From the sequence record PZ509022.1: 64,000 nt of DNA. One strand, 5' to 3'. The DNA comes from a phage. The notes beneath the pieces were generated by a model. It was not told the origin of the DNA. It saw only the letters and a list, made by a program, of their open reading frames with translations, and searched no databases. Every line of letters begins with the position of its first letter. The first letter of the stretch is position 1. Positions 26,515-42,348 of the stretch are shown piece after piece. Both the position numbers and the translations under genes were made by a program.

Positions 26515-26603
26515 TCACCAGTTTAATTCTAGTCATCTTTTTAATGGCAGTCCATATAATCTATTTCTGAACTGCCTTTTTGTCATAGAAGTCCTCTTAT
26601 GAA

Positions 26604-27572: not shown

Positions 27573-27629
27573 TTTATTCTCCTTTGATTTGATAGGACTA
27601 CTATAACATAATCCTATCAGTTTGTATAC

Positions 27630-27830
27630 TTATTTTGACATTTCTTCGATGTCACGACGATACCCGTCACGAACTTCACGAAGAGCTTCAAGGCCACACA
27701 TAGGCTCGATACCTGTAATGTGAACTTGATTAATCTGATACTCTACATCTTCTAACTGAGCGAAAACATAACGACGTTCAGCTGCACAACCAGATTTAGC
27801 TTTACCGAAACGCTTATTCAAAGTAGTCAT
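27630..27830 (-). CDS. hypothetical protein (66 aa)
   Basis: ORF track, early promoter upstream. Confidence 0.4.
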   Translation of the reverse strand: MTTLNKRFGKAKSGCAAERRYVFAQLEDVEYQINQVHITGIEPMCGLEALREVRDGYRRDIEEMSK

Positions 27831-27867
27831 TTTGTATCTCCAATTTACTCATTTGTTTTGATAGGTC

Positions 27868-27898
27868 TATAGTATCAACAACTACAGACCATGTAAAC
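27868..27898 (-). promoter_or_regulatory. T4-type early promoter
   Basis: plus tatagtatc ... tgtaaac. Confidence 0.5.
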
Positions 27899-27901
27899 AA
27901 T

Positions 27902-28165
27902 TTATTTTAATTTTCGCCAAATTTTTACTGCTTCTCGCCTCGATACTTCTACGGCGCCAAGTTCTATAGCTTTTTGACGACGACTTGCACGTAAGTCATA
28001 ATGTTTAATGCGTTTATCTTGAAACCAAGAACGTTTCATTCCTATTGCTTCTGCCATTTCGTGAAGCTCTTCAATATCTCCATCAGTGAACATATGACAA
28101 TTTTTAGTTGGATGACCGCGAAGTTTCCATCCATGATTCATTAAAACATCTACGTAAACTGTCAT
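27902..28165 (-). CDS. hypothetical protein (87 aa)
   Basis: ORF track. Confidence 0.45.
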   Translation of the reverse strand: MTVYVDVLMNHGWKLRGHPTKNCHMFTDGDIEELHEMAEAIGMKRSWFQDKRIKHYDLRASRRQKAIELGAVEVSRREAVKIWRKLK

Positions 28166-28345
28166 TGATTCTTCTCCAAATAAGTTTCGATAATTTTCTG
28201 GGCGAGATAAACCGCGTTATCTTCAGTTGCGTCTTCTAAGAAACTTTCAAAACACTCTGAAATTTCTTCTGTATCAATCAACTTTTTTACTTCAATTGGT
28301 GTAATTTTCATTTTGTTTTCCGTTTAAGTGTTTGTTTTGATAGTT

Positions 28346-28377
28346 GTATAGTACCATAAAGCTTTATGCTTGTAAAC
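28346..28377 (-). promoter_or_regulatory. T4-type early promoter
   Basis: plus tatagtacc ... tgtaaacaactttgtgaaaa. Confidence 0.5.
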
Positions 28378-28407
28378 AACTTTGTGAAAAATTTTTGAAA
28401 TAAAAAA

Positions 28408-28428
28408 GGAGCCCGAAGGCTCCCTATC
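28408..28428 (-). terminator. UUCG-loop hairpin ggagcc-cgaa-ggctcc plus U-run
   Basis: rc gives hairpin followed by TTTTTTATTT. Confidence 0.65.
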
Positions 28429-29440
28429 ATTTATAATAACTTCGATGGTTTTCGAGATACACCTTCTCAAGGAAGTCATCCCAGAAACTCATGTCTACTT
28501 TTTGCTGCATACCGTTCTTAGAAGCTTCAGTAGATGCTGCTTCTACTTGATCGACCACATCTTCCAAAAACTCTTGAACCGTTTTAAATGGATGTTTACC
28601 CAACTTCACGTCGAGAATAAATGGAGCGTCTTGAAGTGGATAAACCAAGTCACCAGTTTTGTAAATTTCCAATAGTTGAAGTCCACCACGGCATGCATGG
28701 CTCAGAGCTTTCCAGTCAATGCCTTCATTGGCTTCGGCCTTACGAGCGCGTTCACCGTATTCAGCATCTAATTTGTTCAGTGACTGCTTAAGCTCAATAA
28801 GAGAAAGCGTTGTCTGATATTTACGACCCAACACAGTGTAGAACGTTTGTGGGCCTGTTTTCTCATGATTATGGAACACCCATTCACAGAATTCGTTTTC
28901 TGGAAGACGATGCTTAATATCTTCAACTTTAGTACGACGCTGCTTAATAGAACCATCTTCTTGGTAATCAATCCATTGCTCAGGGATTTGATTAACTACT
29001 TTCAATACATCACGTAATGCAGCCAAACGAGAACCCTTGACGCCATATTTAGAAGCTTGCTTACGGACATATCCTAAATAGGATTTCATGTTAGTCGTAT
29101 AAAAACGAGAACGGTTGTCTTGAATAAACTTCCACACATCAGGCAAATCAGATTTAACCACTAGTTCAGGTGGAGTGTGAAGCATATCCAATGCTACAGT
29201 TTCACCATCTGCTGCTAATTTAAAGAAATATTTAAGACTGTATAGTTCATGGTCAATATCATCTTTAGTGTTTTTAGATGATGTGTTGTTAGTGTTTTTA
29301 CTCATGTGCTCTTTAACATTTCCGATAAGAATATCACGAGCAGGAGGAACAAAGATTTCTTTAAAATCTACATCAGATTCTGGGGTAGAAGTTCCATAAA
29401 GATGACTACCAAAATAGCTTTTCATTACTGTTTTCATCAT
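28427..29440 (-). CDS. predicted nucleotidyltransferase (Pol beta superfamily) (337 aa)
   Basis: N-terminal GSHLYGTSTPESDVDF matches the G[SG]x9-13DxD motif. Confidence 0.6.
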   Translation of the reverse strand: MMKTVMKSYFGSHLYGTSTPESDVDFKEIFVPPARDILIGNVKEHMSKNTNNTSSKNTKDDIDHELYSLKYFFKLAADGETVALDMLHTPPELVVKSDLPDVWKFIQDNRSRFYTTNMKSYLGYVRKQASKYGVKGSRLAALRDVLKVVNQIPEQWIDYQEDGSIKQRRTKVEDIKHRLPENEFCEWVFHNHEKTGPQTFYTVLGRKYQTTLSLIELKQSLNKLDAEYGERARKAEANEGIDWKALSHACRGGLQLLEIYKTGDLVYPLQDAPFILDVKLGKHPFKTVQEFLEDVVDQVEAASTEASKNGMQQKVDMSFWDDFLEKVYLENHRSYYK

Positions 29441-29898
29441 TCAGCCTTATATTCAATAACAGGACATACTTTAGCTTTACGAGCTTTTAAAAATTCGACG
29501 ATAATCGATTTCTTGGGTTGAATAGGAGGTAAACCTTTATACGCCCTATCAATATTTTCTACGTGTAAAGCATAATCCTTTTTCCATTTATAATCTTTAT
29601 ATTTTTCACGCAGTTGTGCAGGAATAACAAATGAACCGATAATAAGTAAAACAAGCAAAATGGCAAGTATAAATGCTGATGGAATAAGAGTCCATAAACT
29701 ACCAAAAATAAGCCATTTCTGCATGATTTCTGCGCAGATAATAGTTAGACCTGCGAGTATAGTACATCCGAAAAAAGAAACGAAAAATGTAGGAATAACA
29801 ATAGACCAAAAATACGCGCACAGTGTCTTAGGTCGTTGCCATTCATCGTTAAACAATTTGAATAATTTATAGTGCCAAGAGTTTTCATTAATAATCAT
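29437..29898 (-). CDS. membrane protein (153 aa, multiple TM)
   Basis: hydrophobic segments; translationally coupled to neighbours. Confidence 0.5.
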   Translation of the reverse strand: MIINENSWHYKLFKLFNDEWQRPKTLCAYFWSIVIPTFFVSFFGCTILAGLTIICAEIMQKWLIFGSLWTLIPSAFILAILLVLLIIGSFVIPAQLREKYKDYKWKKDYALHVENIDRAYKGLPPIQPKKSIIVEFLKARKAKVCPVIEYKAE

Positions 29899-29900
29899 AA

Positions 29901-30422
29901 TTATCCTTTCATTGAAGGTGTAACAGTTGTTAAATACTTAATCATAGCTTCAGCTTCTGATTTTGATAATGAAATTTCTCCATTGTTTTGACGAATAGAA
30001 ATAAAATCCGGATGACGGTCACCACCAGCTTTTAAAACACACATATAAGTATCAACTTCATCTTCAATATTTGAAATGATTGAAGCAGTTCCACATGAAT
30101 GCGGTTTTTGATAAATCAATACAGCTTTTCTTCCACCGTTTGACTGTTCATAAACTTTTAACACATCAAACAAATCACTTCTTTTATCAATAGCTAAAAT
30201 GTTGTTTTCATCTTCAATGTTAAATCCTTCGGATACTTCATAAAGTGTCACCCATAAATCACCTATATCGATAGTAGCATTTTCCTTTCCATGACTTTCA
30301 AGAGCATGACAAATTTTCTTGATTTCGTCATAACTCATTTTAATAATATCATCTCCTTGACTAAGGAAGATGTCATTTTTAAATTCAACACGAATTAAAC
30401 CACTTTCACTTGAAATAAACAT
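29901..30422 (-). CDS. hypothetical protein (173 aa)
   Basis: ORF track. Confidence 0.5.
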   Translation of the reverse strand: MFISSESGLIRVEFKNDIFLSQGDDIIKMSYDEIKKICHALESHGKENATIDIGDLWVTLYEVSEGFNIEDENNILAIDKRSDLFDVLKVYEQSNGGRKAVLIYQKPHSCGTASIISNIEDEVDTYMCVLKAGGDRHPDFISIRQNNGEISLSKSEAEAMIKYLTTVTPSMKG

Positions 30423-30643
30423 ATTTCCTCACTTTGAAATCATAGTTGGAATAACAGAATCAAGATAAGTCTTTAGTGCAATAGCTTCGTCTTTGGTAAA
30501 TGTGACAATATGTGCTCGAAAATCGTCAATTTGACGAATAGTTAAGACGTCTCCATCTTCATAGCATTTTGAAACATTTAAAATAGTTTCATCATTATGA
30601 TTACAGGAGTTAGTAATAATAGCATTGCAATTTTTAAGCCATT

Positions 30644-30982
30644 TTAAACTATGTTTTCTTTCATTAGAATAATAAAATATTTAATCTTAGTTATAAAATT
30701 ATCCCAATTGTTAATTGATAAGCATATTGACTCGCTTTCAATATTAAATCCTAGGCATAAAGAATAGAAATGAATTTTATGCTCATCATTAATGCTTACA
30801 ATTTTATCAGTATAAGGTTTTTCAATTTGGGTTAAATGAATAATTTCGCTAGGCGTAAAATATAGCATATCGTCTTCTTGCGTCAAACGATACATATTAT
30901 TTACTTTTTCTATAGCCAATTCACCAAAAAATGAACTAACTTCTAATACTAATCGTTTCATATTAATCCTTTTTATTGGCAC
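30644..30982 (-). CDS. hypothetical protein (112 aa)
   Basis: ORF track. Confidence 0.4.
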   Translation of the reverse strand: MPIKRINMKRLVLEVSSFFGELAIEKVNNMYRLTQEDDMLYFTPSEIIHLTQIEKPYTDKIVSINDEHKIHFYSLCLGFNIESESICLSINNWDNFITKIKYFIILMKENIV

Positions 30983-31241
30983 GAATTTGTTCTAAAATTT
31001 TAGAATATTCCTTTGTATCAGATTTACGTACAATTGATACACTATAAGGCATACTATCGGTGTCTTTTATAAAGCGTTCCAAATGACACTCTAACAAAAT
31101 TTCTGGATTATAAATCGTGTACATCAAATTACCTGTTGCTCCACGATATTGGCAGATTTCTACTGATTGAACACCATTCCATAATTTTGTTAAAACTAAA
31201 TCACCTACTTCTAATTTAGGAAAGCCCATGTTATTCACCAA
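30963..31241 (-). CDS. hypothetical protein (92 aa)
   Basis: ORF track. Confidence 0.4.
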   Translation of the reverse strand: MVNNMGFPKLEVGDLVLTKLWNGVQSVEICQYRGATGNLMYTIYNPEILLECHLERFIKDTDSMPYSVSIVRKSDTKEYSKILEQIRANKKD

Positions 31242-31416
31242 TTAAAGTTTCAATATAAGAATCAAGATTTACTTTAGCTTCTTCCATAAGAGTTTTGTAT
31301 TTAATCTTGTTAGCATGTCCGGAGAAAGCTGATTCATCAATAATTGTTGATGTATGAACAGCTTTACTATACGTCTCAATTAATTCTCTTAATTTAAAAG
31401 CCTGCTCACTTGTCAT
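31231..31416 (-). CDS. hypothetical protein (61 aa)
   Basis: ORF track. Confidence 0.35.
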   Translation of the reverse strand: MTSEQAFKLRELIETYSKAVHTSTIIDESAFSGHANKIKYKTLMEEAKVNLDSYIETLIGE

Positions 31417-31540
31417 TACATACTCCTTTGAATAATATCAATAATGTTGTTCACCAGATTATAAGTAAACATTGGGTAATTATATTGAATCATCACATAC
31501 ACAACAAACAAAACTTTCATTCTCTTCTCCTTGGCAGTTG

Positions 31541-31578
31541 ACAAGATTACTATACCATAACCTTGTCAACTTGTAAAC
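31541..31578 (-). promoter_or_regulatory. T4-type early promoter
   Basis: plus tactataccat ... tgtaaac. Confidence 0.45.
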
Positions 31579-31743
31579 CATTAAATGGCGTTTTCAATAA
31601 AATTCTGAAGCTTTGTGTGAGCATCAACCATGATTTTCATTTCTTCTTTTGCGAAAGCTGTACCTCTTTCCCGAGCAGAATACTCATAGTCAGAAACTGC
31701 GTTAGCATATTCTTCAATTAGTTTCATTAAAAACATCTGCTTT

Positions 31744-31938
31744 TCAGTTTTCATTATTCCACCTAATCATTTCAAGATATTGAACTAACTTAGCTTTGGA
31801 TTTATCCAAATCCTTTTTAGCTGCTTCTATACCGTCGTATGAATATCCTTCACAATGCTCAACTGCTAATTGATATGAATCTATTTCAATATCACGTGCT
31901 AATTTAATGATTTTTTCAAACTGTTCGCGTGTTAGCAT
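31744..31938 (-). CDS. hypothetical protein (64 aa)
   Basis: ORF track. Confidence 0.4.
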   Translation of the reverse strand: MLTREQFEKIIKLARDIEIDSYQLAVEHCEGYSYDGIEAAKKDLDKSKAKLVQYLEMIRWNNEN

Positions 31939-31940
31939 AC

Positions 31941-32180
31941 TTAAACTCTCGTATTATGATCGATAATTTCATCAAGAAACATATCTAACGCTTCTACAGC
32001 ATTATTAACTTTATCTTCAAGTTCTTCAATACTTTTATTTGCAATTCCTGACGAAAACCAAGCAAAGTCACTAAGTTCCTCATCTGCTTTACGAATTAAA
32101 GCTACCAATTCCTTAATTTTATCCGCTTGTTCGATACTAATCATTATTCTACCACATATGAAAGAGAGAATATTGCACAC
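31941..32180 (-). CDS. hypothetical protein (79 aa)
   Basis: ORF track. Confidence 0.4.
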
Positions 32181-32332
32181 GCCATGTGAGTTGCAACTTC
32201 ATCACACATATTATAACGTTTCTTAAGAAGTTCTACAAGTTCTTCACTAGTAACTTCATCCATGTCGACGAAAAAATCACCATTAATGATGACGTAGATA
32301 TTTCCTTCTTGATTGAGTGCTTCAATTTTCAT
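32144..32332 (-). CDS. hypothetical protein (62 aa)
   Basis: ORF 32144..32377 trimmed to MKIEALNQ so the early promoter lies upstream. Confidence 0.4.
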
Positions 32333-32358
32333 GATGTTCTCCTCTTTATCTGATAGTT

Positions 32359-32390
32359 GTATAGTACCACAACTCAAACGGAAAGTAAAC
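32359..32390 (-). promoter_or_regulatory. T4-type early promoter
   Basis: plus tatagtacc ... agtaaac. Confidence 0.5.
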
Positions 32391-32397
32391 CGGTAAA

Positions 32398-32420
32398 ATG
32401 AAAAAAGTCTCCCGAAGGAG
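32398..32420 (-). terminator. UUCG-loop hairpin gtctcc-cgaa-ggagac plus U-run
   Basis: rc hairpin followed by TTTTTTCATTTT. Confidence 0.65.
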
Positions 32421-32427
32421 ACTAATG

Positions 32428-32814
32428 TTATTCGAGGGAAAGAAGATACTTACTCTGGTAAAACATTCCAGTAATATCATCTATCGTGCTTTGAATGGCT
32501 GGAGGCATTTCTTTATAAATGCTGTTAGATTGGTCTAGTATGCGATCAATCATTTTAATTGTGTCGGTAGGAAGTTTACTGGCATCTGGAATTGAAGGTG
32601 TGTATTTTCTACCAGAATACCCCAAATATTGCTCACCAAATTTATCAATCAAATCTGGCAACTCGGAGAAAATAAAATCGTATGCTTTGTGTCTAGCATA
32701 ATTTTTAGTTTCAAAATGTGCAGAATGAAAATAAGCTTGTGCAGCCATTAATAAACCTAAGTATTCATCTGCCTTTGAAGGTTTTCCACTTTGTGAAAAG
32801 TCGCTGAATTTCAT
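32428..32814 (-). CDS. hypothetical protein upstream of rI (128 aa)
   Basis: ORF track. Confidence 0.5.
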
Positions 32815-33104
32815 TCAGTCTCCAATTTAATGTTCATAATTCTAGCGTATGATTGTGCCATCTCCGCGCCTCGCTCTATACATTCAAAATCAGAAGAGCA
32901 CGGGTCATTTTTATAGGTCGTTCTCATAAAACTATAGAATTGTTCAGACGATTCTACGCTTTTATTTTCAAAAAGTGTATAAACGTGCCTAATACCAGAT
33001 TCCATAAATTTATCAAAATGAGGATCGACATTCGCTTCAATCGGTGGAGATAAAGCAAACGCTAATCCTAGCATGGCAAATAGTGCCGTTGCTTTTAAGG
33101 CCAT
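32811..33104 (-). CDS. rI: lysis-inhibition regulator RI (97 aa, signal-anchor)
   Basis: 97 aa, N-terminal signal MALKATALFAMLGLAFA, matches my recollection of T4 RI. Confidence 0.8.
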   Translation of the reverse strand: MALKATALFAMLGLAFALSPPIEANVDPHFDKFMESGIRHVYTLFENKSVESSEQFYSFMRTTYKNDPCSSDFECIERGAEMAQSYARIMNIKLETE

Positions 33105-33116
33105 AAAGGCCTCCTA

Positions 33117-33329
33117 TCATTTTTGTCCTGTATTTACTTTATGCCGATGCACGGCCTTAACTTTATCAAGGTATTTTTCAAAATTTCGCAATCTAGTATA
33201 GTCTGCCGGAGATTGGTTGAGTGATACTTCTCGACGCAAAGCTGAAATGATATTTCCAACTTCCCTACGAATTTCATCTAATTGAAGAACAGTAAGATTG
33301 CGAAGTTGCTTTTCAGTTAATTGTAGCAT
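33117..33329 (-). CDS. hypothetical protein (70 aa)
   Basis: ORF track. Confidence 0.4.
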
Positions 33330-33371
33330 ATATACCCCTTTAGTTAGATAAACCTATTTATAACTTTTGCA

Positions 33372-33953
33372 CTAACCGAGCTTTTTAGTTAATTCGTTCC
33401 AATGTTTTCTACACAAAGAAACATAAATTTCATCACCAATACAGATTTGATTACCTTCTTTAACTGGTGTTCCATCTTCCATTAATCGAGCTGTCATAAT
33501 AGCTTTTTTACCACAATGACAAACTGCCTTTAGTTCAATAAGTTTATCTGCAATCGCCAAAAGTTCTTTAGAACCTTCAAATAATTTTCCAGCGAAATCA
33601 GTCCTTAGCCCATAAGCCATAACAGGAACATTATATGTATCAACAATTCGACTTAATTGATGCACCTGTTCAGTTTTTAAAAACTGAGCTTCATCTACAA
33701 ATACACAATGAATATCTTTTTGTGCTTCAGCCCATTTATAGAACTCAAAAATATCCATATCATCCGTAATAATATTCGCTTCCTGCTTAATTCCAATGCG
33801 AGAAACGACTTCACAGACAGAATCGCGAGTATCAATAGCAGGCTTAAGAACTAATACACCCATTCCGCGTTCTTTATAATTATGTGCAGCAGTCAAAAGA
33901 GAAGCAGATTTTCCAGCATTCATTGCTGCGTAAGTAAAAATTAAACTCGCCAT
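33372..33953 (-). CDS. tk: thymidine kinase (193 aa)
   Basis: P-loop MNAGKSASLL, C-terminal Cys pairs. Confidence 0.9.
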   Translation of the reverse strand: MASLIFTYAAMNAGKSASLLTAAHNYKERGMGVLVLKPAIDTRDSVCEVVSRIGIKQEANIITDDMDIFEFYKWAEAQKDIHCVFVDEAQFLKTEQVHQLSRIVDTYNVPVMAYGLRTDFAGKLFEGSKELLAIADKLIELKAVCHCGKKAIMTARLMEDGTPVKEGNQICIGDEIYVSLCRKHWNELTKKLG

Positions 33954-33962
33954 ATCACCTTC

Positions 33963-34154
33963 TTAAAGCATATTCACATAAGCTATTAATTCGTTTTCTT
34001 TCTTATCAAACCGATCAGCAAATTCTTCTTGCTGTTCGGGAGATAGCGGGCCGTATTCATCATAAAAGGTGTTTGCTTCTGTATGCTCATCTAGAAGTTC
34101 ATGGATAAGCTCAAACAATTTATCTTTTTGTTCTTTACTCAGACTCATAACCAT
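33963..34154 (-). CDS. hypothetical acidic protein (63 aa)
   Basis: ORF track. Confidence 0.4.
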   Translation of the reverse strand: MVMSLSKEQKDKLFELIHELLDEHTEANTFYDEYGPLSPEQQEEFADRFDKKENELIAYVNML

Positions 34155-34372
34155 GTCACCTTTAAGCAGTATTCTTCTACATGCTGTTTACGACCTTTCT
34201 TATCAATAAAGGTATATTCAACGAATGTTCCAATGTAGTCTTTATCTACATCATGTGGACTATTAATTGGACATTTAGTACGGCAAATGCGTTCCCATTG
34301 ACGAATAATTACTGCCTTATTCTTTGGGTCATACGGATGTGGATAATGTATATTCATAATAACGGTTCCCAA
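34145..34372 (-). CDS. hypothetical protein (75 aa)
   Basis: ORF track. Confidence 0.4.
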   Translation of the reverse strand: MGTVIMNIHYPHPYDPKNKAVIIRQWERICRTKCPINSPHDVDKDYIGTFVEYTFIDKKGRKQHVEEYCLKVTWL

Positions 34373-34821
34373 TCAACAATCACAATTTCTAATTTAGAGG
34401 AATATGTATCTAAAATCCCCTCAATAATATCCCAGTTCCCTTTACCTATGGCTGCTCCAATCCTAGGCATATAGATTGTAGGTTTAATCAGTTTATTTTC
34501 ACCAAACTCATTTAATTCTAACATACAATTCATTAAAGCGGAATACTCAAAATTTGGCCCTGGTTGAAATTGAGTATAAAGATTAAAGCAGTAAGCTTTA
34601 TGAGTCCTAAAGTATTTTTCATAGACTGAGTAAGAACCGAGTTTAGTTACATCGCCCCATTCTGTCTGTAATTTATCAGCTTCCAAAATTTTAGGGAAAG
34701 CTTTGGTTAATTGACCCGCTACGCCTGAACCCATAGTATGAAAACAATTGCATCCATGCGCAATATTTTTACCTTCAGCGAAAAGGGCGACAATATCGCC
34801 CTTGATATATTTTACAATCAT
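34354..34821 (-). CDS. macro-domain-like protein (155 aa)
   Basis: GDIVALFAEGKNIAHGCNCFHTMGSGVAGQL resembles the macro-domain Gly-rich ADP-ribose-binding loop. Confidence 0.5.
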   Translation of the reverse strand: MIVKYIKGDIVALFAEGKNIAHGCNCFHTMGSGVAGQLTKAFPKILEADKLQTEWGDVTKLGSYSVYEKYFRTHKAYCFNLYTQFQPGPNFEYSALMNCMLELNEFGENKLIKPTIYMPRIGAAIGKGNWDIIEGILDTYSSKLEIVIVDWEPLL

Positions 34822-35159
34822 CTAGTACTCAATCCTCGATTATAAGAATCTACCAAACGGTCAACCATTGAATGACAAGCGGCTTTATCTTTCTCCTCCG
34901 CAACTGAACATTCTAAGGTATTCCACTTTTTAGCATATCGTTTTAATAATGTATCGTTTTTGTATCTGCTTGATTTATCTCTTTCTCCGTCTTTATATGC
35001 ATATATTAATTTCTGTGCAAATTCAGCTTGGCATGCTTTATTTTTCCCACAATAATCTGCCGCAGTGCGGTTTACATATTCTCTAATTTCAGTATATGAT
35101 GTATCTGCTAACGCAGAAAATGAAATTAATCCTATACATAAAACCAAAATTTTAGTCAT
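34818..35159 (-). CDS. secreted Cys-containing protein (113 aa, signal peptide)
   Basis: N-terminal MTKILVLCIGLISFSALA. Confidence 0.5.
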   Translation of the reverse strand: MTKILVLCIGLISFSALADTSYTEIREYVNRTAADYCGKNKACQAEFAQKLIYAYKDGERDKSSRYKNDTLLKRYAKKWNTLECSVAEEKDKAACHSMVDRLVDSYNRGLSTR

Positions 35160-35697
35160 TTACTATTTCCAAAAGTTTATTATTTTTAAGGTAATTAGCC
35201 TTTTCTAGGACTTCAGAAGCATATTTAGAACCAGCTTTAACATTCCATCCCGAATTATAAGAGGATATTGCTTTTCTTATATCGCCCTTATGTATATTTA
35301 ACCAATAAGAAAGTTCAATGTACGCCCAGGAAGCTGAATTGGACCGTTTATTCAACATTCTTTTTATTTCAGCATCGGTCATATTATAACCAAGTTCCTT
35401 AACTCTCGCTCGCATAGTAGGCAAATAATTTTGGAACATTCCGTAGGCGTGATGCTTTGGTTTAGATTTTAAATTAACTCCGCCAGAGCTTTCTTGCCAT
35501 AAAATGGCTGCCATTATATGACCTAATCCGCTCTTGTGGATATTTTTGTGTGTTTTATATTTTCCATCCTTAGAAAATTGTTCCCCGAATTGATACGCGT
35601 AACGCATGTTATCGAGTTGGACATTACTGAAAGTATGCTCGGAGCTATGCGCCATCATTGAAATGGCCAATAGACCAGCGAGTAGTGCTTTTCTCAT
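35152..35697 (-). CDS. secreted lytic-transglycosylase-like protein (181 aa)
   Basis: signal peptide; WQESSGG ... YGMFQ resembles the SLT catalytic region. Confidence 0.45.
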   Translation of the reverse strand: MRKALLAGLLAISMMAHSSEHTFSNVQLDNMRYAYQFGEQFSKDGKYKTHKNIHKSGLGHIMAAILWQESSGGVNLKSKPKHHAYGMFQNYLPTMRARVKELGYNMTDAEIKRMLNKRSNSASWAYIELSYWLNIHKGDIRKAISSYNSGWNVKAGSKYASEVLEKANYLKNNKLLEIVND

Positions 35698-35704
35698 GCT
35701 TACC

Positions 35705-36166
35705 TCATTGAGTTTTAATTACTGCTTTAGAAGCCTTTCCTGGTAAACGACGACTGTTGATAATTGCCATCCTACATTGAAGTGACGGGTCTTTGAACTT
35801 CGCGTTAGGTTTACAAACTGTAAATCCAAGCCAAAGATTTCCATCTGTGATTTCTAAACGTCCAGGACGATATTCAACCCCATCAATAAAATCCTCGTCA
35901 ATGTCAGGACGCGGAGGCATACTCAGGAATTCATTAACTTCTAAAACATGGTCTTTTATTTTATGGAATAATTCAAAAACATATGTCTCATCAATCTCCC
36001 GTTGAATTGCACGATCAAGAAGATGTTGAGAATATTTTAGATGAAACGATGAGACTCCTGCTGCTTTTGATGCCTCACGAATCTCATTGTTAATTTGACG
36101 AAACTCCGACTCAAAGTGACGACGAAGCTTATTTCGACGGATAAAAACTTCTGTATTGATAGTCAT
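35705..36166 (-). CDS. regB: RegB endoribonuclease (153 aa)
   Basis: 153 aa at the T4 regB position with early promoter upstream. Confidence 0.7.
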   Translation of the reverse strand: MTINTEVFIRRNKLRRHFESEFRQINNEIREASKAAGVSSFHLKYSQHLLDRAIQREIDETYVFELFHKIKDHVLEVNEFLSMPPRPDIDEDFIDGVEYRPGRLEITDGNLWLGFTVCKPNAKFKDPSLQCRMAIINSRRLPGKASKAVIKTQ

Positions 36167-36193
36167 GTTATTCTCCTCTTAACTGATAGAAAA

Positions 36194-36223
36194 ATTATAC
36201 CACAGTCAAGAGGAAAAGTAAAC
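36194..36223 (-). promoter_or_regulatory. T4-type early promoter (rc GTTTAC, 18 nt, TGG TATAAT)
   Basis: plus attataccac ... gtaaac. Confidence 0.55.
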
Positions 36224-36225
36224 AG

Positions 36226-36504
36226 TTATTCTTTAAATCTAATCAATTTATTCATAGACTTTGAAACTTCTGCACGAACCTCATGTAGATTTTTGAGCTG
36301 TTCAAGACGCTGCTCATAGTAAGCAATTTCATCTTCTTCGAGACAGTCCTGTGAATCTTCTTTAAGATAACGTGCATAGTCCTGGAAAGCGTTACGAACT
36401 ACTTCCTGGAAGTCATCAAGACTTTGAATTTTCTTAGGAGCAACAGATACACGACGAGGGGCAGTATAATACTCATAACCAAACCCTGCGCTTAATTGAG
36501 CCAT
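36226..36504 (-). CDS. hypothetical protein
   Basis: ORF 36226..36546 trimmed to MAQLSAG. Confidence 0.4.
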
Positions 36505-36770
36505 TAGTATTTTTCCTCTGGTTGGAACACTGCGCGACAAGCCCACATACTGGCTTCTTTGAGTTTCATTTTAGCAATAGTTAACTGATCGAGGCTTTCG
36601 GCGTAATTCTTCGCGAGTTCATCATCTTCACAGCTATCAAATGCTTCCCAGAATTCATCATATAAAGCATCAAAGATAAGCCCTAAACGAACTTCAGCAT
36701 CTTTGATAGCATTCACTTTACTGATTTTATCGTCAGTATGTGGTTTATAACCTTTAATGTCTTCAATCAT
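36504..36770 (-). CDS. hypothetical acidic protein (88 aa)
   Basis: ORF track. Confidence 0.45.
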
Positions 36771-36984
36771 ATTTTACTTCCTCACCTGTTCCCAAATCAT
36801 ATTCAACTAAACGAATAGGTTCATGAATGCCATATCCTTGAACAGAAATTTCTGTCGTAGGATAAATTCCATTAATATCACCCATGTTCCATGCTTCGTT
36901 AAATTGCTGTTCGCCTGAATTACTAAACCACTCGGCGAAAGCATTTAGCACATCTTCAGAACCTTCAATAATTATCTTTGCCAT
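36763..36984 (-). CDS. hypothetical protein (73 aa)
   Basis: ORF track. Confidence 0.45.
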   Translation of the reverse strand: MAKIIIEGSEDVLNAFAEWFSNSGEQQFNEAWNMGDINGIYPTTEISVQGYGIHEPIRLVEYDLGTGEEVKYD

Positions 36985-37346
36985 TACAAACTCTCGGTGA
37001 AGGTACGAGCGATAACGTCGCGCTGCTGTTCCGGAGTCAGAGAGTTAAAGCGAACTGCATAACCGGATACACGGATGGTCAGCTGCGGATATTTTTCCGG
37101 ATGCTTAACTGCATCTTCCAGAGTTTCACGACGCAGAACGTTAACGTTCAGGTGTTGACCACCTTCAATTTTAACTGTAGGCTGTTGCTCAATTTCAATT
37201 TCACGGGCATGCAAACCATAGAAAATTTCTGGGTCTACAAAAGAGTCCTCTTTAAAGGTTTTAGAGACAATAATTCGTGCTTGAATACCATCTTCAAAAT
37301 AAATAGTACCTTTATGTGTGCCTTCAAGAATTTGATATGCTTTCAT
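36984..37346 (-). CDS. autonomous glycyl-radical cofactor, GrcA/YfiD-like (120 aa)
   Basis: C-terminal [19 protein letters not shown] matches the RVSGY glycyl-radical motif. Confidence 0.7.
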
Positions 37347-37352
37347 ATAACC

Positions 37353-37682
37353 TCAATTAAAAAATAAATTTATCCAAGATTGTTCTTTAATTAAAAATGG
37401 CTCAGAATCATATGCCATTAAACTCTGTGTGATTAGTCCTTTAAAAGGCCCATCAATAAATTCCATGGTAAAATATGGAATTTTATTCATTAGCCGTGCA
37501 TTAGGAGCCGTGCACAAAACTCTGCATCCTTTGAATACGCCTTTTTGTAATTTGTATTGCTTGGGATAAAATTCGCTCAAAATGTTATTTTTTGCCAAAA
37601 TTTCAAAATGATTCACCAATTTATTTTTAATAGTTTTTGGCGAAAAATAAAGATATTCGAAAAGCTGAGTGTCTGTCATCAT
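37353..37682 (-). CDS. hypothetical protein
   Basis: ORF 37353..37733 trimmed to internal Met after upstream stop. Confidence 0.35.
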   Translation of the reverse strand: MMTDTQLFEYLYFSPKTIKNKLVNHFEILAKNNILSEFYPKQYKLQKGVFKGCRVLCTAPNARLMNKIPYFTMEFIDGPFKGLITQSLMAYDSEPFLIKEQSWINLFFN

Positions 37683-38218
37683 TGCATTCCGATTACGAAA
37701 AACTGTGGACGAGTAATACCACCAATGCAACATTTAATATTACAGCAGCAGTGTACAGTGTCAATATGGACACTATAAATCTTATCCATATCAGGAGATT
37801 TGACAGGCTCATCAATTATATACAAAATTCGCGAAAGCGATAAACCTCTGAACTTGCTTCCTTTATTACCAATAAAACTGCGCACAGAATCAGTAAATAA
37901 ACGAAAACGTATATCATCATTAGAATAACGCGAAAATTCCTTTTTAATATTATCTGCGGAAATTTTAGCGTAAGCTGAAGTATTAGAAAGAACAATAACT
38001 GTTCCACCGTCATACAACCAATTAGCGGCAAAATTAGTTACTGCAGTTGATTTACCAGATTGACGCCCACCATCTAGTCGAAGTGTACAATACTGTTTAA
38101 GTAAGTCTTCAAATGGCGGGATATATTCGTTTTTACAAATTTCTTCTACTCTAGCATCAGAATGGTGTGTAAAAGCATTCATCAGGGATAGATAAGGACC
38201 AGTTAAAAATGTTCTCAT
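37679..38218 (-). CDS. small P-loop protein (GGRQSGKST)
   Basis: ORF 37679..38266 trimmed; Walker A-like and hhhhDE motifs. Confidence 0.4.
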   Translation of the reverse strand: MRTFLTGPYLSLMNAFTHHSDARVEEICKNEYIPPFEDLLKQYCTLRLDGGRQSGKSTAVTNFAANWLYDGGTVIVLSNTSAYAKISADNIKKEFSRYSNDDIRFRLFTDSVRSFIGNKGSKFRGLSLSRILYIIDEPVKSPDMDKIYSVHIDTVHCCCNIKCCIGGITRPQFFVIGMQ

Positions 38219-38363
38219 TTTGTTCTCTCTAGGTTTGGGCCATTCCATGGCGCATGAATTGTCCATTTCTGTATTTACCCATTACCGCACTTGGGCTCGA
38301 CCTTATTACAGGTTGGCGGGAATCCCTCACAGAATCATGAGGTCCAGGTTATTCCCATGTTAT

Positions 38364-38780
38364 TTAAATGTAAATATTTTTGCCGTAATACTTATACCAG
38401 TGTGGCTTCATTAAAATTTTTTCATCGAGTCGTTGTTGACTCAACTTAATAGCTGATTTGCATGGATTATAATCATTTTTCCATTCTACTGGAATATCGC
38501 TGATGTCAGGAACTTCAGTATCTTTTATACTGAACCCGCGTTTTAAGCATTCCGTTATAATGTCCGATTGACGCTTTCGCAAAAATTCTAACTTATCGTA
38601 AAAGAAAGTAACATGACCAGAACCTAAAATAAATTTAGAAGATATTTTAAAATCTTTAACACGCTTACCATTTGCCACATGCTTACGAACTATACCAAAA
38701 ACACGCGGCAATTCACGGTATTCTGCGATTAAATGTTGATCAGCAAGTTCAGATACTAAAGTCAAATTAATACGAGTCAT
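38364..38780 (-). CDS. denV: endonuclease V, pyrimidine-dimer DNA glycosylase (138 aa)
   Basis: 138 aa, N-terminal [17 protein letters not shown] as in T4 DenV. Confidence 0.9.
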
Positions 38781-38803
38781 TTTATCCCTCCAAGTAACTG
38801 TGA

Positions 38804-38835
38804 ATATACTATCACAATTCTAGGAGAAAGTAAAC
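38804..38835 (-). promoter_or_regulatory. T4-type early promoter
   Basis: plus atatactatcac ... gtaaac. Confidence 0.5.
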
Positions 38836-38839
38836 AACT

Positions 38840-39370
<531 letters not shown>

Positions 39371-39826
39371 TTAAAAGAGGCTGTTCATTATTCGGTAAAG
39401 TGAAGGACCCATCACATATTGCCACTGAGTACGAGGAATAAGAGCAAAAGCATCCATCTCTGGAATCATAACGCCATCTTTATTTTCAAAATAAGACTCG
39501 CAATGGCAATTTCTAAACATCTCATGCTCTACTGGAATCGTATAATAAAATAACTGTAAGTCTTTATTACTAGAATATTTAAATACACCTAGGTCTTCTA
39601 GAAGGTCTGGATTATAATTGCTAAAACCGGTCTCTTCTAAGCATTCTCTTTTTGCAGCTTCCAGTGCATTCAAATCAGAACTTTCTACACGTCCCTTTGG
39701 AATATCCCAGCGATGTGCCATCATTCCAGGCTTACGAGAACCAGTAACCCGACCCATAAATAAATCTTTATCTTCTGTCATGAAGATAATACCAGCTGAT
39801 AATGTTTTCATTTTAATTTCCTGCAT
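39371..39826 (-). CDS. nudE: Nudix hydrolase (151 aa)
   Basis: Nudix box GRVESSDLNALEAAKRECLEETGF. Confidence 0.8.
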   Translation of the reverse strand: MQEIKMKTLSAGIIFMTEDKDLFMGRVTGSRKPGMMAHRWDIPKGRVESSDLNALEAAKRECLEETGFSNYNPDLLEDLGVFKYSSNKDLQLFYYTIPVEHEMFRNCHCESYFENKDGVMIPEMDAFALIPRTQWQYVMGPSLYRIMNSLF

Positions 39827-40296
39827 TCAGTGATAAAGTTATTTAAATTTTGAGTATATTTCTTTTCATCAAAAATCTTTTGTTGTCTGCGTAGCCGCCA
39901 TGGCATTTCAATGAACGTGTACCATATCCCAGATAATATTGATGCTGTAAAAATATTAACAAGTATGGTTAAAAGAATCCAATCTCCTATTCTGTCCATT
40001 GGATTTTTTATAAAAAAGTAAAATACGAATGATGACACAGGAAGACTAATGATATACCACAGAATCATAATCTTATCTGTGAACCATTCAGCATTCGTTA
40101 ACTTAGCACGACCATTATGAATACACACGAATTTATCATCTGTTACAGTAGATGGCTTAACTGCTTGATATCCCATTCTAAACTCCCTAATTAATCGTTT
40201 CTTTGTATCTTCAGAACAGCCGCTCCAGTCAACTCTATCAACTGAAATGCCATCGTCCCCATCATCTAAATCATACCAGCGAGTTTTTAAAATCAT
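39808..40296 (-). CDS. 2-TM membrane protein, paralog family member (162 aa)
   Basis: two TM segments; C-terminal NNFITECRKLK. Confidence 0.5.
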   Translation of the reverse strand: MILKTRWYDLDDGDDGISVDRVDWSGCSEDTKKRLIREFRMGYQAVKPSTVTDDKFVCIHNGRAKLTNAEWFTDKIMILWYIISLPVSSFVFYFFIKNPMDRIGDWILLTILVNIFTASILSGIWYTFIEMPWRLRRQQKIFDEKKYTQNLNNFITECRKLK

Positions 40297-40655
40297 TTAA
40301 TTTTCCTACAATCACTCACAAACTCTTCCATTGATTCTTTTTCAATATAAGACATATAGCTATTATATTCCTTTAATTGTATTTTGTAATCCTTTTTTCT
40401 TTGCCAATTTATTTTAAAATTATCATAATGAAAATATAACATGGTACCAAAGAATGAAAATAATGAAATCGCTATAGTAAAACGAAGTTCACTCCAAACC
40501 TCTGTTATAATTACTGTGCCGTCGATATTTAAAATAAAACAGTCAATTAACAATCCAATAAGACTACCCGCAAGAGCTGTAAATACTGATACAGCAAGAA
40601 TTAATAGTGCCTCAGGAAACGAATATTTGACTTTATTTAGTTTTGGCTTTTGCAT
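40293..40655 (-). CDS. 2-TM membrane protein, paralog family member (120 aa)
   Basis: two TM segments; C-terminal EEFVSDCRKIK. Confidence 0.5.
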   Translation of the reverse strand: MQKPKLNKVKYSFPEALLILAVSVFTALAGSLIGLLIDCFILNIDGTVIITEVWSELRFTIAISLFSFFGTMLYFHYDNFKINWQRKKDYKIQLKEYNSYMSYIEKESMEEFVSDCRKIK

Positions 40656-41050
40656 CGTGATTCCTTAACAAATTTCATAATTTCATCAAATTCATACATA
40701 TCTAGCTTAAGCTGGTGTTCCTTTTTAATCTTTTTACACTGAGCTTTCCAATCACGTACACGTTTACGATAATGTCTTCCTTGATACCAGTATCCTACCC
40801 AATTTACGGGTACTAATAAAAGTGGAACTATTAATGGAAGAATTAGCATTAACACAAGTATTTCGCCAGAATCAATATCAGTCATAACATCTAAAACACC
40901 TCCAATAATCAATAGAATTACAAATGATATGAGTATAACAGGACCTATTAACACATCAGTAGAAATTATCTGACGCTTTGGTTCATACTTCACAGGTTTA
41001 CTTGGAAGGTATAGTGATGGTTTTGACATATTCTCTACATTCCTTAACAA
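40637..41050 (-). CDS. 2-TM membrane protein, paralog family member (137 aa)
   Basis: two TM segments; C-terminal MKFVKESRCKSQN. Confidence 0.5.
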   Translation of the reverse strand: MLRNVENMSKPSLYLPSKPVKYEPKRQIISTDVLIGPVILISFVILLIIGGVLDVMTDIDSGEILVLMLILPLIVPLLLVPVNWVGYWYQGRHYRKRVRDWKAQCKKIKKEHQLKLDMYEFDEIMKFVKESRCKSQN

Positions 41051-41612
41051 ATTTTTCTAGTAATAAATCACTTTCAAAATTGGGATTTTCTACAAATTTA
41101 TCAAAAAGATCATCAACAATAGTTAAGATATTCTTTTTACTAAGAATACGTTTATTTTCATGCTTCGTTTCAGAATCAACTATAAGAGTAAAGAAATATT
41201 TCTTGCCCTGAAATTTTACAGTAGTATCAATATAAAATAAATTTGACTTTTGTAAATTACGTTTAAACCATGCGTCACTTAAACTATAAACACCGAGATA
41301 ATCAAAATCGTCGTTTAAATAACAAACCGTCCATTCAGGAGAAATGAAATCAGTAAATTCAACATCAAAATCACACGTCAATGAATGAATTGATTCAATA
41401 CTGTTAATGAGTATTCCAGGACGTATTAAAGACTTTTTACCTCTAGAAAATCTTCCGGAAAGGCTTTCATCAGTTTCATATGAAGACCCCCAATAGTAAT
41501 TACGTCCTTCTGCCATGCGTTTAAGAGCATTTAGTAATTGGTCTGGAACATCAACCTGTCTTTGGAACTCTTCAAACATTGAATTGAAATCACTTTGCAT
41601 TTTCATTTTCAT
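40998..41612 (-). CDS. hypothetical protein (204 aa)
   Basis: ORF track. Confidence 0.5.
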   Translation of the reverse strand: MKMKMQSDFNSMFEEFQRQVDVPDQLLNALKRMAEGRNYYWGSSYETDESLSGRFSRGKKSLIRPGILINSIESIHSLTCDFDVEFTDFISPEWTVCYLNDDFDYLGVYSLSDAWFKRNLQKSNLFYIDTTVKFQGKKYFFTLIVDSETKHENKRILSKKNILTIVDDLFDKFVENPNFESDLLLEKFVKECREYVKTITIPSK

Positions 41613-41631
41613 TCCTATTTACTCCAAGTAT

Positions 41632-41649
41632 AAGGGGCCGAAGCCCCTT
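41632..41649 (-). terminator. UUCG-loop hairpin aaggggc-cgaa-gcccctt
   Basis: inverted repeat. Confidence 0.5.
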
Positions 41650-41653
41650 ATCA

Positions 41654-42247: not shown

Positions 42248-42348
42248 AGTATTTCCTTAGGTTAATTGAGATTTAAAATCCGTAGGAGTATAATACTCTA
42301 TCGTCAAATTATAGGCTCATAATATCTCAATCATGAGCCTGCGTAAAC

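What the first reader, a model, noticed from the sequence alone, without database searches (positions are those of the whole stretch)
34354..34821. Macro-domain-like protein in a phage that ADP-ribosylates host proteins
The Gly-rich GDIVALFAEGKNIAHGCNCFHTMGSGVAGQL segment resembles the ADP-ribose-binding loop of macro domains. T4-type phages are known to encode ADP-ribosyltransferases, and macro domains can reverse ADP-ribosylation or degrade ADP-ribose-derived signals. The protein could regulate phage-driven modification or counter a host defence.
Basis: partly seen in the sequence, partly recalled or inferred. Interest (0 to 1): 0.45.

Follow-up and report, generated by a model that had tools for sequence, protein, structure and literature searches.

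The report
T4 Tk.4/AdfM macrodomain, anti-DarTG2 factor

Summary

The function is published. In a 2025 preprint a T4 transposon screen found tk.4 as the only hit on a DarTG2 host. A clean knockout sensitised T4, and the gene was renamed adfM. That it removes ADP-ribose from thymidine in DNA is inferred, not shown for T4.

Three points are added here.
- The protein is not a DarG-family member. Its DarG model scores fall far below the cut-off, it has no DarT-binding domain, and the catalytic Lys of DarG/TARG1 is replaced by an invariant Gln84.
- This is the active site of SCO6735, which does hydrolyse thymidine-linked ADP-ribose, but here with a short mobile loop. PhiKZ "AdfM" is a different, genuinely DarG-like subfamily.
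- This window carries a private G124A change at a 96%-conserved phosphate-loop glycine, with unknown effect.

No evidence links the protein to T4's own ADP-ribosyltransferases. Novelty: already known. Interest is low.

The parts
34354..34821 (-). tk.4 / adfM coding sequence, 155 aa, a single macrodomain
34708..34800 (-).
   Evidence: Translation checked. Conservation: G8 231/246, N25 246/246, G33 245/246, A35 244/246.
34717..34758 (-). Loop 1, H22-G-C-N25-C-F-H-T-M-G31-S-G33-V-A35. Asn25 aligns with SCO6735 Asn27 and the DarG/PhiKZ catalytic-site Asn. His22 aligns with SCO6735 His24. The Gly23 backbone aligns with SCO6735 Val25.
   Evidence: MAFFT alignment with BT1257, SCO6735, TARG1, DarG and PhiKZ gp104. 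SCO6735 N27S is nearly inactive (PMC9411070). PhiKZ N23A has reduced activity (PMC13309987).
34570..34584 (-). N80-L-Y-T-Q84 motif. Gln84 occupies the position of the catalytic Lys of TARG1 (K84) and DarG (K80), and of SCO6735 Gln85.
   Evidence: Profile alignment to TARG1, MAFFT, Q84 in 246/246 homologues. SCO6735 Q85A/E is dead.
34432..34467 (-). Phosphate-binding loop 2, P119-R-I-G-A-A124-I-G-K-G-N-W130. The family consensus is P-x-I-G-(C/A)-G-(L/I)-A-G-G-D-W.
   Evidence: It aligns with TARG1 PRIGCGLDRLQW and DarG PPLGxGNGGL. TARG1 Asp125 corresponds to Gly126 here.
34450..34452 (-). Codon 124, GCC (Ala). This is the only residue that differs from T4 Tk.4 (GGC, Gly), through a single-base change at window position 34451.
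   Evidence: The exact protein is absent from the 15-billion-sequence collection. Gly occurs at this position in 237/246 homologues.
34818..34821 (-). ATGA overlap of the vs stop codon with the tk.4 start codon, suggesting translational coupling. GAGGA lies 12-16 nt upstream.
   Evidence: Read directly from the sequence.
34354..34357 (-). ATGA overlap of the tk.4 stop codon with the tk.3 (DUF7202) start codon
   Evidence: Read directly from the sequence. tk.3 matches Pfam DUF7202 at E 1.6e-38. T4 has the same arrangement.

Best explanation
The gene is the ortholog of phage T4 tk.4 (adfM). It encodes a free-standing, minimal ALC1-like macrodomain made inside the infected cell, within the tightly packed regB, vs.1, vs, tk.4, tk.3, tk gene block.

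Proposed mechanism: when the host carries a DarTG2 toxin-antitoxin defence, infection frees DarT2. DarT2 uses NAD+ to attach ADP-ribose to N3 of thymidine in TNTC motifs of single-stranded phage DNA, which blocks replication. Tk.4/AdfM binds the ADP-ribose through its two glycine-rich loops and hydrolyses the thymine-ribose bond. This releases free ADP-ribose and restores the DNA, so the phage acts as its own orphan antitoxin.

The chemistry is most likely that of SCO6735 rather than DarG. No lysine nucleophile is present. Instead the invariant Gln84, held in place by Asn25, positions the distal ribose, and a backbone-held water starts the reaction.

What is shown and what is inferred:
- Shown here: orthology, fold, class and active-site residues.
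- Shown in the literature for T4: the protein is required for growth on a DarTG2 host.
- Shown in the literature for the relative SCO6735 and for PhiKZ gp104: hydrolysis of DarT2-made thymidine-linked ADP-ribose on DNA.
- Inferred: that T4-type Tk.4 performs this hydrolysis, that it uses the Gln mechanism, and that the G124A allele in this window is still active.
For: - Orthology: 99.4% identity to T4 Tk.4 with the same neighbours.
- Genetics in T4: tk.4 was the single significant hit of a transposon library on a DarTG2 host. The clean knockout was sensitised and the gene was renamed adfM (10.1101/2025.11.20.689424). Independently, T4 lacking adfA and adfN stayed DarTG2-resistant, which predicted another factor (PMC11825919).
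- Class function: thymidine ADP-ribosylation reversal has been proposed as the unifying activity of the ALC1-like class. SCO6735 removes DarT-made thymidine-linked ADP-ribose faster than DarG or TARG1 and rescues cells from DarT (PMC9411070).
- Active site: Gln84 sits at the TARG1 K84 / DarG K80 / SCO6735 Q85 position and is invariant in 246/246 homologues, as is Asn25. SCO6735 Q85A is dead and N27S nearly dead.
- Spread: the family occurs in 2742 of 50,697 phage records and 3739 protein clusters at 50% identity, as expected for a counter-defence gene.
Against: - No biochemistry exists for T4 Tk.4. The preprint authors state the mechanism as 'seems likely'.
- The genetic evidence is one non-peer-reviewed preprint, obtained under special conditions (M9 glucose medium, 30 C).
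- The protein is only a remote relative of DarG: 26.5 bits against a 250-bit cut-off, and 21% identity to the biochemically proven PhiKZ AdfM. It lacks the Lys that DarG needs.
- It also lacks the long mobile loop, with its basic residues, that SCO6735 is proposed to use for DNA processivity. Here 8 residues lie between Gln and Tyr, against 13-14 in SCO6735/BT1257.
- This window's allele has Ala at the near-invariant Gly124. The equivalent SCO6735 G128E reduces activity, so this copy could be weakened.
- SCO6735 Q85A still inhibits DarT by binding, so protection need not be purely catalytic.
Confidence: 0.78

Rival explanations
1. The macrodomain regulates the phage's own ADP-ribosylation. It would remove ADP-ribose or RNA chains placed on host proteins by the T4 enzymes Alt, ModA and ModB.
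For: T4-type phages do encode these transferases (listed in PMC9503650). Arginine-specific macrodomains exist in principle, for example Legionella MavL, cited as reference 35 in PMC13036486.
Against: Alt/Mod modifications are arginine-linked, by my recollection of Goff 1974 and Tiemann 2004, which appeared only as reference titles. Arginine-linked ADP-ribose is normally reversed by ARH1/DraG-type enzymes (PMC7050489). Tk.4 is ALC1-like, and tested members of that class act on Glu/Asp esters and T/U bases, not arginine. The tk.4 knockout showed a defect only on the DarTG2 host. The gene is not adjacent to any transferase gene in this window.
Confidence: 0.04
2. It is a small-molecule enzyme: an ADP-ribose-1''-phosphate phosphatase or O-acetyl-ADP-ribose deacetylase. 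This is the origin of the database labels 'phosphatase', 'Poa1p-like' and 'O-acetyl-ADP-ribose deacetylase'. It would clean up by-products of RNA repair or of sirtuins.
Against: These labels are transferred by homology, not tested. Poa1p has Ser, not Gln, at the key position, judged by reading the alignments together. The 2'-phosphotransferase pathway that generates ADP-ribose-1''-phosphate is not known in T4 infection (my knowledge). The only phenotype found for T4 tk.4 is DarTG2-specific.
Confidence: 0.07
3. Protection against DarTG2 comes mainly from binding and blocking DarT2, or from shielding modified DNA, rather than from hydrolysis.
For: Catalytically dead SCO6735 Q85A inhibits DarT more strongly than dead DarG or dead TARG1 (PMC9411070). 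This window's allele carries a substitution in the phosphate loop, yet the gene is otherwise under purifying selection, with 7 synonymous and 1 non-synonymous differences from T4.
Against: Tk.4 lacks the C-terminal DarT-binding domain of DarG, matching only positions 2-146 of the 338-position model. All catalytic-site residues are invariant across 246 homologues, which argues for selection on chemistry. Hydrolysis alone is enough for PhiKZ AdfM and SCO6735 to rescue cells from DarT.
Confidence: 0.08
4. The anti-DarTG2 role is one of several. The enzyme would also erase other host-made ADP-ribose marks, such as uracil-linked ADP-ribose on RNA or Glu/Asp-linked marks on proteins, and so would counter further, still unidentified ADP-ribosylating defences.
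For: The nearest characterised relatives, SCO6735 and TARG1, hydrolyse thymidine-linked ADP-ribose on DNA, uracil-linked ADP-ribose on RNA and Glu/Asp-linked ADP-ribose on proteins. The family is far more widespread in phages than a single defence system might explain.
Against: No such phenotype has been reported. CmdTAC, which ADP-ribosylates mRNA, still defends strongly against wild-type T4, so at least that mark is not erased. RNA adenine ADP-ribosylation by CmdT is described as irreversible.
Confidence: 0.2
5. In this particular phage the gene is a weakened or inactive allele because of G124A, or the base at 34451 is a sequencing error.
For: 34451 is the only difference from phage vB_EcoM_FT across window 34039..35271. 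The exact protein is absent from 15 billion sequences. Gly occupies this position in 237/246 homologues, and only one other homologue has Ala. The equivalent SCO6735 G128E lowers activity.
Against: Gly to Ala is the mildest possible change. The reading frame is intact. A few homologues carry N, T, V, S or A at this position together with intact Asn25 and Gln84.
Confidence: 0.15

Closest known systems
Phage T4 Tk.4 = AdfM (anti-DarT factor Macrodomain), bioRxiv 10.1101/2025.11.20.689424
   Same: It is the ortholog: 154/155 identical, the same length, and the same position between vs and tk.3. It is already annotated in GenBank records as 'macro domain protein', 'Poa1p_like family protein with Macro domain' or 'ADP-ribose binding module protein'.
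   Different: There is one residue difference, G124A, in the phosphate-binding loop. The window's phage is a different mosaic Tequatrovirus, at most 97.4% identical to catalogued genomes over 25 kb.
Streptomyces coelicolor SCO6735 (PDB 5E3B) and Bacteroides BT1257 (PDB 2FG1/2AFC), the Gln-type ALC1-like macrodomains
   Different: Identity is only about 25-29%. The T4-type protein has a short 'mobile loop', with 8 residues between Gln and Tyr against 13-14, and so lacks the loop said to be characteristic of that subclass. Its first loop reads HGCNCFHTMGSG rather than H(I/V)CND(I/L)GGWGKG. The bacterial proteins are chromosomal housekeeping genes, not phage counter-defence genes.
DarG antitoxin macrodomain (T. 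aquaticus 5M31/5M3E, M. tuberculosis 5M3I; NCBIfam NF048014)
   Different: The score is 26.5 bits against the 250-bit cut-off. There is no C-terminal DarT-binding domain. The FPTK motif with catalytic Lys80 is replaced by LYTQ. It is not encoded next to a darT gene.
PhiKZ gp104 'AdfM' (Cell Rep 2026, PMC13309987)
   Same: It has the same given name and the same proposed job, a phage macrodomain that counters DarTG2. For gp104, removal of thymidine-linked ADP-ribose from DNA was shown in vitro.
   Different: It belongs to a different subfamily. gp104 is genuinely DarG-like: E 9.4e-25 to Mtb DarG, 133-138 bits on the DarG models, and an FPTK Lys. It shares only 21% identity with Tk.4, at pairwise E 0.002. 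The two 'AdfM' proteins appear to be independent recruitments of ALC1-like macrodomains.
Human TARG1/OARD1 (PDB 4J5R/4J5S) and yeast Poa1p (PDB 6LFQ)
   Different: The TARG1 catalytic dyad Lys84/Asp125 corresponds to Gln84/Gly126 here. Poa1p is characterised as an ADP-ribose-1''-phosphate phosphatase.

Membership tests
Macro domain superfamily (Pfam PF01661) | Profile match above the curated gathering score | tested here: met
   23.3 bits against a cut-off of 22, E 6.6e-5, covering residues 22-132. This is marginal for the single sequence. The family profile hits solved macrodomains at E down to 1.8e-26.
Macro domain superfamily (Pfam PF01661) | Three-layer alpha/beta macro fold | tested here: met
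Macro domain superfamily (Pfam PF01661) | Conserved Asn and Gly-rich ADP-ribose-binding loops 1 and 2 | tested here: met
   Asn25 and G31-x-G33 are present and invariant or near-invariant. Loop 2 (P-x-I-G-x-G) is present, but its second Gly is Ala in this allele.
ALC1-like macrodomain class (TARG1, DarG, SCO6735, ALC1) | Nearest structural and sequence neighbours are members of the class | tested here: met
ALC1-like macrodomain class (TARG1, DarG, SCO6735, ALC1) | Minimal domain with no N- or C-terminal extension and only five helices (Rack et al. 2020, PMC7050489) | tested here: met
   The protein is 155 aa. The model has five helices: 10-15, 33-41, 43-52, 93-108 and 130-140. The definition is quoted.
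DarG antitoxin family (NCBIfam NF048014 equivalog; PADLOC DarG) | Score above the curated cut-off of the family model | tested here: not met
   26.5 bits against a cut-off of 250. The PADLOC DarG model gives 32.3 bits, against 132.9 for PhiKZ gp104.
DarG antitoxin family (NCBIfam NF048014 equivalog; PADLOC DarG) | Catalytic lysine in the FPTK motif (Lys80) | tested here: not met
   The aligned residue is Gln84 in the motif LYTQ, and it is Gln in 246/246 homologues.
DarG antitoxin family (NCBIfam NF048014 equivalog; PADLOC DarG) | C-terminal DarT-binding domain and an adjacent darT gene | tested here: not met
   The match covers only model positions 2-146 of 338 and the protein ends at residue 155. 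The neighbours are vs and tk.3 (DUF7202), not darT.
TARG1-type hydrolases | Lys84/Asp125 catalytic dyad | tested here: not met
   The aligned residues are Gln84 and Gly126 (family consensus Ala).
SCO6735/BT1257 subclass (Gln-type ALC1-like hydrolases) | Gln at the catalytic-Lys position, stabilised by the conserved Asn, with a preceding His | tested here: met
   Q84, N25 and H22 align with SCO6735 Q85, N27 and H24. Their mutational importance is given in PMC9411070.
SCO6735/BT1257 subclass (Gln-type ALC1-like hydrolases) | Mobile loop about five residues longer than in TARG1/DarG, stated to be characteristic of the subclass | tested here: not met
   Eight residues lie between Gln84 and Tyr93, the same as TARG1 K84 to Y93, against 13-14 in SCO6735/BT1257. 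Many more distant family members have 11-14.
SCO6735/BT1257 subclass (Gln-type ALC1-like hydrolases) | Hydrolysis of thymidine-linked ADP-ribose on single-stranded DNA | not testable with these tools
   This needs an in vitro assay on DarT2-modified TNTC oligonucleotides. It has been shown for SCO6735 and for PhiKZ gp104, not for Tk.4.
T4 AdfM (tk.4) orthologous group | Near-identity and conserved gene neighbourhood | tested here: met
   99.4% amino-acid identity to T4 Tk.4, with the order regB, vs.1, vs, tk.4, tk.3, tk as in T4.
T4 AdfM (tk.4) orthologous group | Required for plaque formation on a DarTG2-expressing host | not testable with these tools
   Published for T4 only. It is untested for this phage and for the G124A allele.

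The most novel reading that the evidence does not exclude
T4-type AdfM may be a third active-site architecture within the ALC1-like macrodomains. It combines the lysine-free, Gln-dependent, water-initiated chemistry of SCO6735 with the short loop of TARG1/DarG. It would have been recruited by phages independently of the DarG-derived PhiKZ 'AdfM'. Like SCO6735 and TARG1, it might erase more than DarT2 marks, for example uracil-linked ADP-ribose on RNA or Glu/Asp-linked ADP-ribose on proteins, which would make it a broad-spectrum eraser of host ADP-ribosylating defences. The private G124A allele in this window would then be a natural probe of how much change the phosphate loop tolerates.
Probability: 0.35. 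Interest if true: 0.4.

Novelty: already known. Interest (0 to 1): 0.2.

Why it matters
Phage macrodomains are very common. This family alone is found in about 5% of catalogued phage genomes, and until 2025 none had a demonstrated role. The T4 protein now has one: it neutralises a DNA-ADP-ribosylating toxin-antitoxin defence, alongside the NADAR protein AdfN, which handles the guanine-modifying DarTG1.

For annotation, the practical lesson is that the widespread database label 'phosphatase' for this family is a legacy homology transfer and should read anti-DarT2 macrodomain (AdfM).

The residual scientific value of this locus is modest:
- T4-type AdfM is not DarG-like in its catalytic residues, so its chemistry cannot simply be copied from DarG.
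- Two unrelated subfamilies now share the name AdfM.
- This particular allele carries a rare change in the phosphate-binding loop.

Tried and rejected
- I looked for a direct link to the phage's own ADP-ribosyltransferases. There is none in the gene neighbourhood. By the T4 map (my knowledge, plus adfN = gene 30.3), alt, modA, modB and adfN lie outside the part of the genome that this window covers. I did not verify this by scanning every ORF in the window.
- I considered filing the protein as a DarG homologue, as the preprint's wording suggests. I rejected this as a family assignment because the DarG model cut-off, the catalytic Lys and the DarT-binding domain all failed.
- I considered it the same family as PhiKZ AdfM. 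I rejected this at 21% identity with different motifs.
- I considered the 'phosphatase' label (PHROG 335). I treat it as transferred annotation only.
- I tried to read LeRoux et al. 2022 (the DarTG defence paper, PMC9250638) for the T4/DarTG2 phenotype. It is not held, so I relied on PMC11825919 and the preprint.
- The promoter and terminator scan gave nothing above the shuffle expectation for promoters: 14 found against 16.1 expected. I draw no conclusion about expression timing.
- The CmdTAC paper was checked for macrodomain reversal and mentions none. It only shows that wild-type T4 remains sensitive to CmdTAC.
- I did not model the effect of G124A, because AlphaFold2 is not informative for single substitutions.

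Full report
**Observation.** The ORF listing shows an ATG-to-stop frame of 155 codons at exactly 34354..34821 on the minus strand. The start codon overlaps the stop of the upstream gene in an ATGA, and the stop overlaps the start of the downstream gene in another ATGA. The gene therefore sits in a tightly packed, co-oriented block.

Pfam scans of the neighbours identify, in transcription order:
- RegB endoribonuclease (35705..36166)
- an SLT-domain protein, vs.1 in T4 (35152..35697)
- vs (34818..35159)
- the ORF in question
- a DUF7202 protein, tk.3 (34145..34357)
- a DUF7438 protein (33963..34154)
- thymidine kinase (33372..33953)

**Source of the window.** The 2.9-kb region is 99% identical to many Tequatrovirus genomes. 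Over 25 kb the best catalogued genome reaches only 97.4%, so this is a mosaic T4-type phage that is not itself in the reference collection. By tblastn the protein is 99.4% identical to T4 'ORF 60.5', which is Tk.4, with the same neighbours as in T4. GenBank records already call the orthologs 'macro domain protein', 'Poa1p_like family protein with Macro domain', 'ADP-ribose binding module protein' or 'phosphatase'.

**Is it a macrodomain?** Yes.
- The single sequence passes Pfam Macro only narrowly, at 23.3 bits against 22.
- A profile of 75 homologues hits solved macrodomains at E 1.8e-26 (BT1257), 6e-22 (SCO6735), 1.5e-18 (TARG1), 2.5e-17 (Poa1p) and 1.4e-16 (M. tuberculosis DarG).
- AlphaFold2 with that alignment gives pLDDT 95.1 and pTM 0.90, with five helices and no extensions.
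- This places the protein in the ALC1-like class, which Rack et al. define as minimal five-helix macrodomains (PMC7050489).

**What is already known about function.** A full-text search found a November 2025 preprint on a method named HIDEN-SEQ (10.1101/2025.11.20.689424). In it a T4 transposon library was passed through a DarTG2-expressing host and gave a single significant hit, tk.4. A clean knockout became sensitive, and the authors renamed the gene adfM, anti-DarT factor Macrodomain. They state that removal of ADP-ribose from DNA 'seems likely', on the basis of structural similarity to DarG. An earlier paper had shown that T4 lacking both adfA and adfN remains fully DarTG2-resistant, and had predicted another factor (PMC11825919).

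**Mechanism: what kind of macrodomain it is.** The preprint compares Tk.4 with DarG, but the sequence does not support DarG membership.
- The NCBIfam DarG equivalog scores 26.5 bits against a cut-off of 250, and the PADLOC DarG model gives 32 bits. Both cover only the macrodomain part of the model.
- The other phage protein called AdfM, PhiKZ gp104, is biochemically shown to remove DarT2-made ADP-ribose from DNA (PMC13309987). It scores 133-138 bits on the same models and E 9.4e-25 against Mtb DarG. It shares only 21% identity with Tk.4.
- A MAFFT alignment of Tk.4-family members with BT1257, SCO6735, TARG1, two DarG macrodomains and gp104 agrees with the HMMER profile alignment. The catalytic lysine of TARG1 (K84, ITK) and of DarG and gp104 (FPTK) aligns with Gln84 of Tk.4 (LYTQ) and with Gln85 of SCO6735 and the equivalent Gln of BT1257 (MIGQ). 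TARG1 Asp125 aligns with Gly126.
- Gln84 and Asn25 are invariant in 246 of 246 homologues drawn from two database searches.

SCO6735 has been studied in detail (PMC9411070).
- It removes DarT-made thymidine-linked ADP-ribose faster than DarG or TARG1.
- It rescues cells from DarT.
- It is inactive on guanine-linked ADP-ribose.
- It loses all activity on Q85A/E and almost all on N27S.
- It is proposed to work through a backbone-positioned water rather than a lysine nucleophile.

That paper also proposes that thymidine de-ADP-ribosylation is the unifying activity of the ALC1-like class. The best-supported mechanism for Tk.4 is therefore SCO6735-type hydrolysis of thymidine-linked ADP-ribose on phage single-stranded DNA.

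One difference stands out. The 'mobile loop' after the Gln, said to be five residues longer in the SCO6735/BT1257 subclass, is short in the T4 clade. Eight residues lie between Gln84 and Tyr93, as in TARG1, whereas more distant members of the same phage-rich family have 11-14. T4-type AdfM is thus a hybrid: a Gln-type active site on a short-loop scaffold.

**The allele in this window.** The one amino-acid difference from T4 Tk.4, and from Yersinia phage PYPS2T, is G124A. Against the nearest DNA match, phage vB_EcoM_FT, the gene differs at one base, window position 34451. The two sequences are otherwise identical from 34039 to 35271. The exact protein is absent from a 15-billion-sequence collection. 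Residue 124 is the second glycine of the phosphate-binding P-x-I-G-x-G loop. It is equivalent to SCO6735 Gly128, whose G128E mutant loses activity, and by my own residue count on the, 57 alignment to TARG1 Gly123. It is Gly in 237 of 246 homologues and Ala in only one other. Against T4 the gene has seven synonymous changes and this single non-synonymous one, so the gene as a whole is under purifying selection. I cannot tell whether this change is neutral, weakening, or a base-calling error.

**Rivals.**
Alt, ModA and ModB make arginine-linked marks (my recollection). Such marks are the substrates of ARH1/DraG-type enzymes. An arginine-specific macrodomain, MavL, does exist (reference), so the idea is not impossible. 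But Tk.4 belongs to a class with no such activity reported, the knockout phenotype is DarTG2-specific, and no transferase gene is nearby. I give it about 4%.
- *The 'phosphatase' and 'O-acetyl-ADP-ribose deacetylase' labels.* These are homology transfers from Poa1p and YmdB. They may reflect side activities.
- *Inhibition of DarT2 by binding.* This deserves a test, because dead SCO6735 does inhibit DarT. The strict conservation of catalytic residues argues for catalysis.
- *A wider substrate range.* Uracil-linked ADP-ribose on RNA and Glu/Asp-linked protein marks are plausible by analogy with SCO6735 and TARG1, but untested. Wild-type T4 remains sensitive to the mRNA ADP-ribosyltransferase system CmdTAC.

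**Distribution.** Homologues occur in 2742 of 50,697 phage records across Escherichia, Klebsiella, Salmonella, Pseudomonas, Vibrio, Acinetobacter and other phages. They fall into 3739 clusters at 50% identity with E <= 0.001, and 1115 with E <= 1e-10. This is consistent with a survey finding macrodomains in 41% of myoviruses (PMC9503650).

**Verdict.** The functional guess is half right, and the right half is already published. The finding is a known gene with a recently assigned function. Interest is low.

Noticed in passing
window 34451 (codon 124 of tk.4, 34450..34452, minus strand): There is a private single-base change, GGC to GCC (Gly124Ala), at a 96%-conserved glycine of the phosphate-binding loop. 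It is the only difference from phage vB_EcoM_FT across 34039..35271, and the exact protein is absent from a 15-billion-protein collection. It could be a natural variant, a weakened allele or a sequencing error.
   Followed up: partly
window 33963..34154 (minus strand), between tk and tk.3: Only one small DUF7438/PHROG-653-type ORF (63 aa) lies between thymidine kinase and tk.3. T4 has two paralogues there (tk.1 and tk.2) and Yersinia phage PYPS2T has three, which accounts for the roughly 370-bp length difference in the megablast hits. The copy number of this small paralogous gene varies between close relatives.
   Followed up: partly
window 39371..39826 (minus strand): A 151-aa Nudix hydrolase (Pfam NUDIX, E 3.8e-13) lies about 4.5 kb upstream of tk.4 in the same orientation, next to lysozyme e and endonuclease V. 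It is the counterpart of T4 NudE (e.1). By my recollection T4 NudE hydrolyses ADP-ribose, so it could dispose of the free ADP-ribose released by the macrodomain. This link is speculative.
   Followed up: no
window 34818..35159 (minus strand), gene vs: The gene immediately upstream of tk.4, translationally overlapped with it, is vs, the valyl-tRNA synthetase modifier. It has no Pfam match here. The same preprint reports vs as the T4 gene most strongly depleted in minimal M9 glucose medium compared with LB.
   Followed up: no
window 34783..34803: A perfect 8-bp-stem hairpin, AAGGGCGA-TATTG-TCGCCCTT on the coding strand, lies within codons 7-13 of tk.4, 19-39 nt after the start codon. The terminator scan flagged it on the opposite strand. 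It may be chance or a translation-modulating structure. Its conservation was not examined.
   Followed up: no
window 35152..35697 (minus strand), vs.1: The 181-aa protein has an N-terminal hydrophobic, signal-like segment and a weak SLT lytic-transglycosylase domain (E 1.4e-5). Public records annotate it inconsistently, as 'endoribonuclease', 'putative transglycosylase' or 'unknown function'.
   Followed up: no
literature (not in the window): Two unrelated macrodomain subfamilies now carry the same name, AdfM. T4 Tk.4 is Gln-type and SCO6735-like. PhiKZ gp104 is Lys-type and DarG-like. They share 21% identity. The two were named in separate papers that do not cite each other in the passages read.
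   Followed up: yes
window 22000..46900: No genome in the August 2025 phage collection exceeds 97.4% identity over this 25-kb stretch, and matches break into 6-8 pieces. The source is a mosaic Tequatrovirus not represented in that collection.
   Followed up: partly
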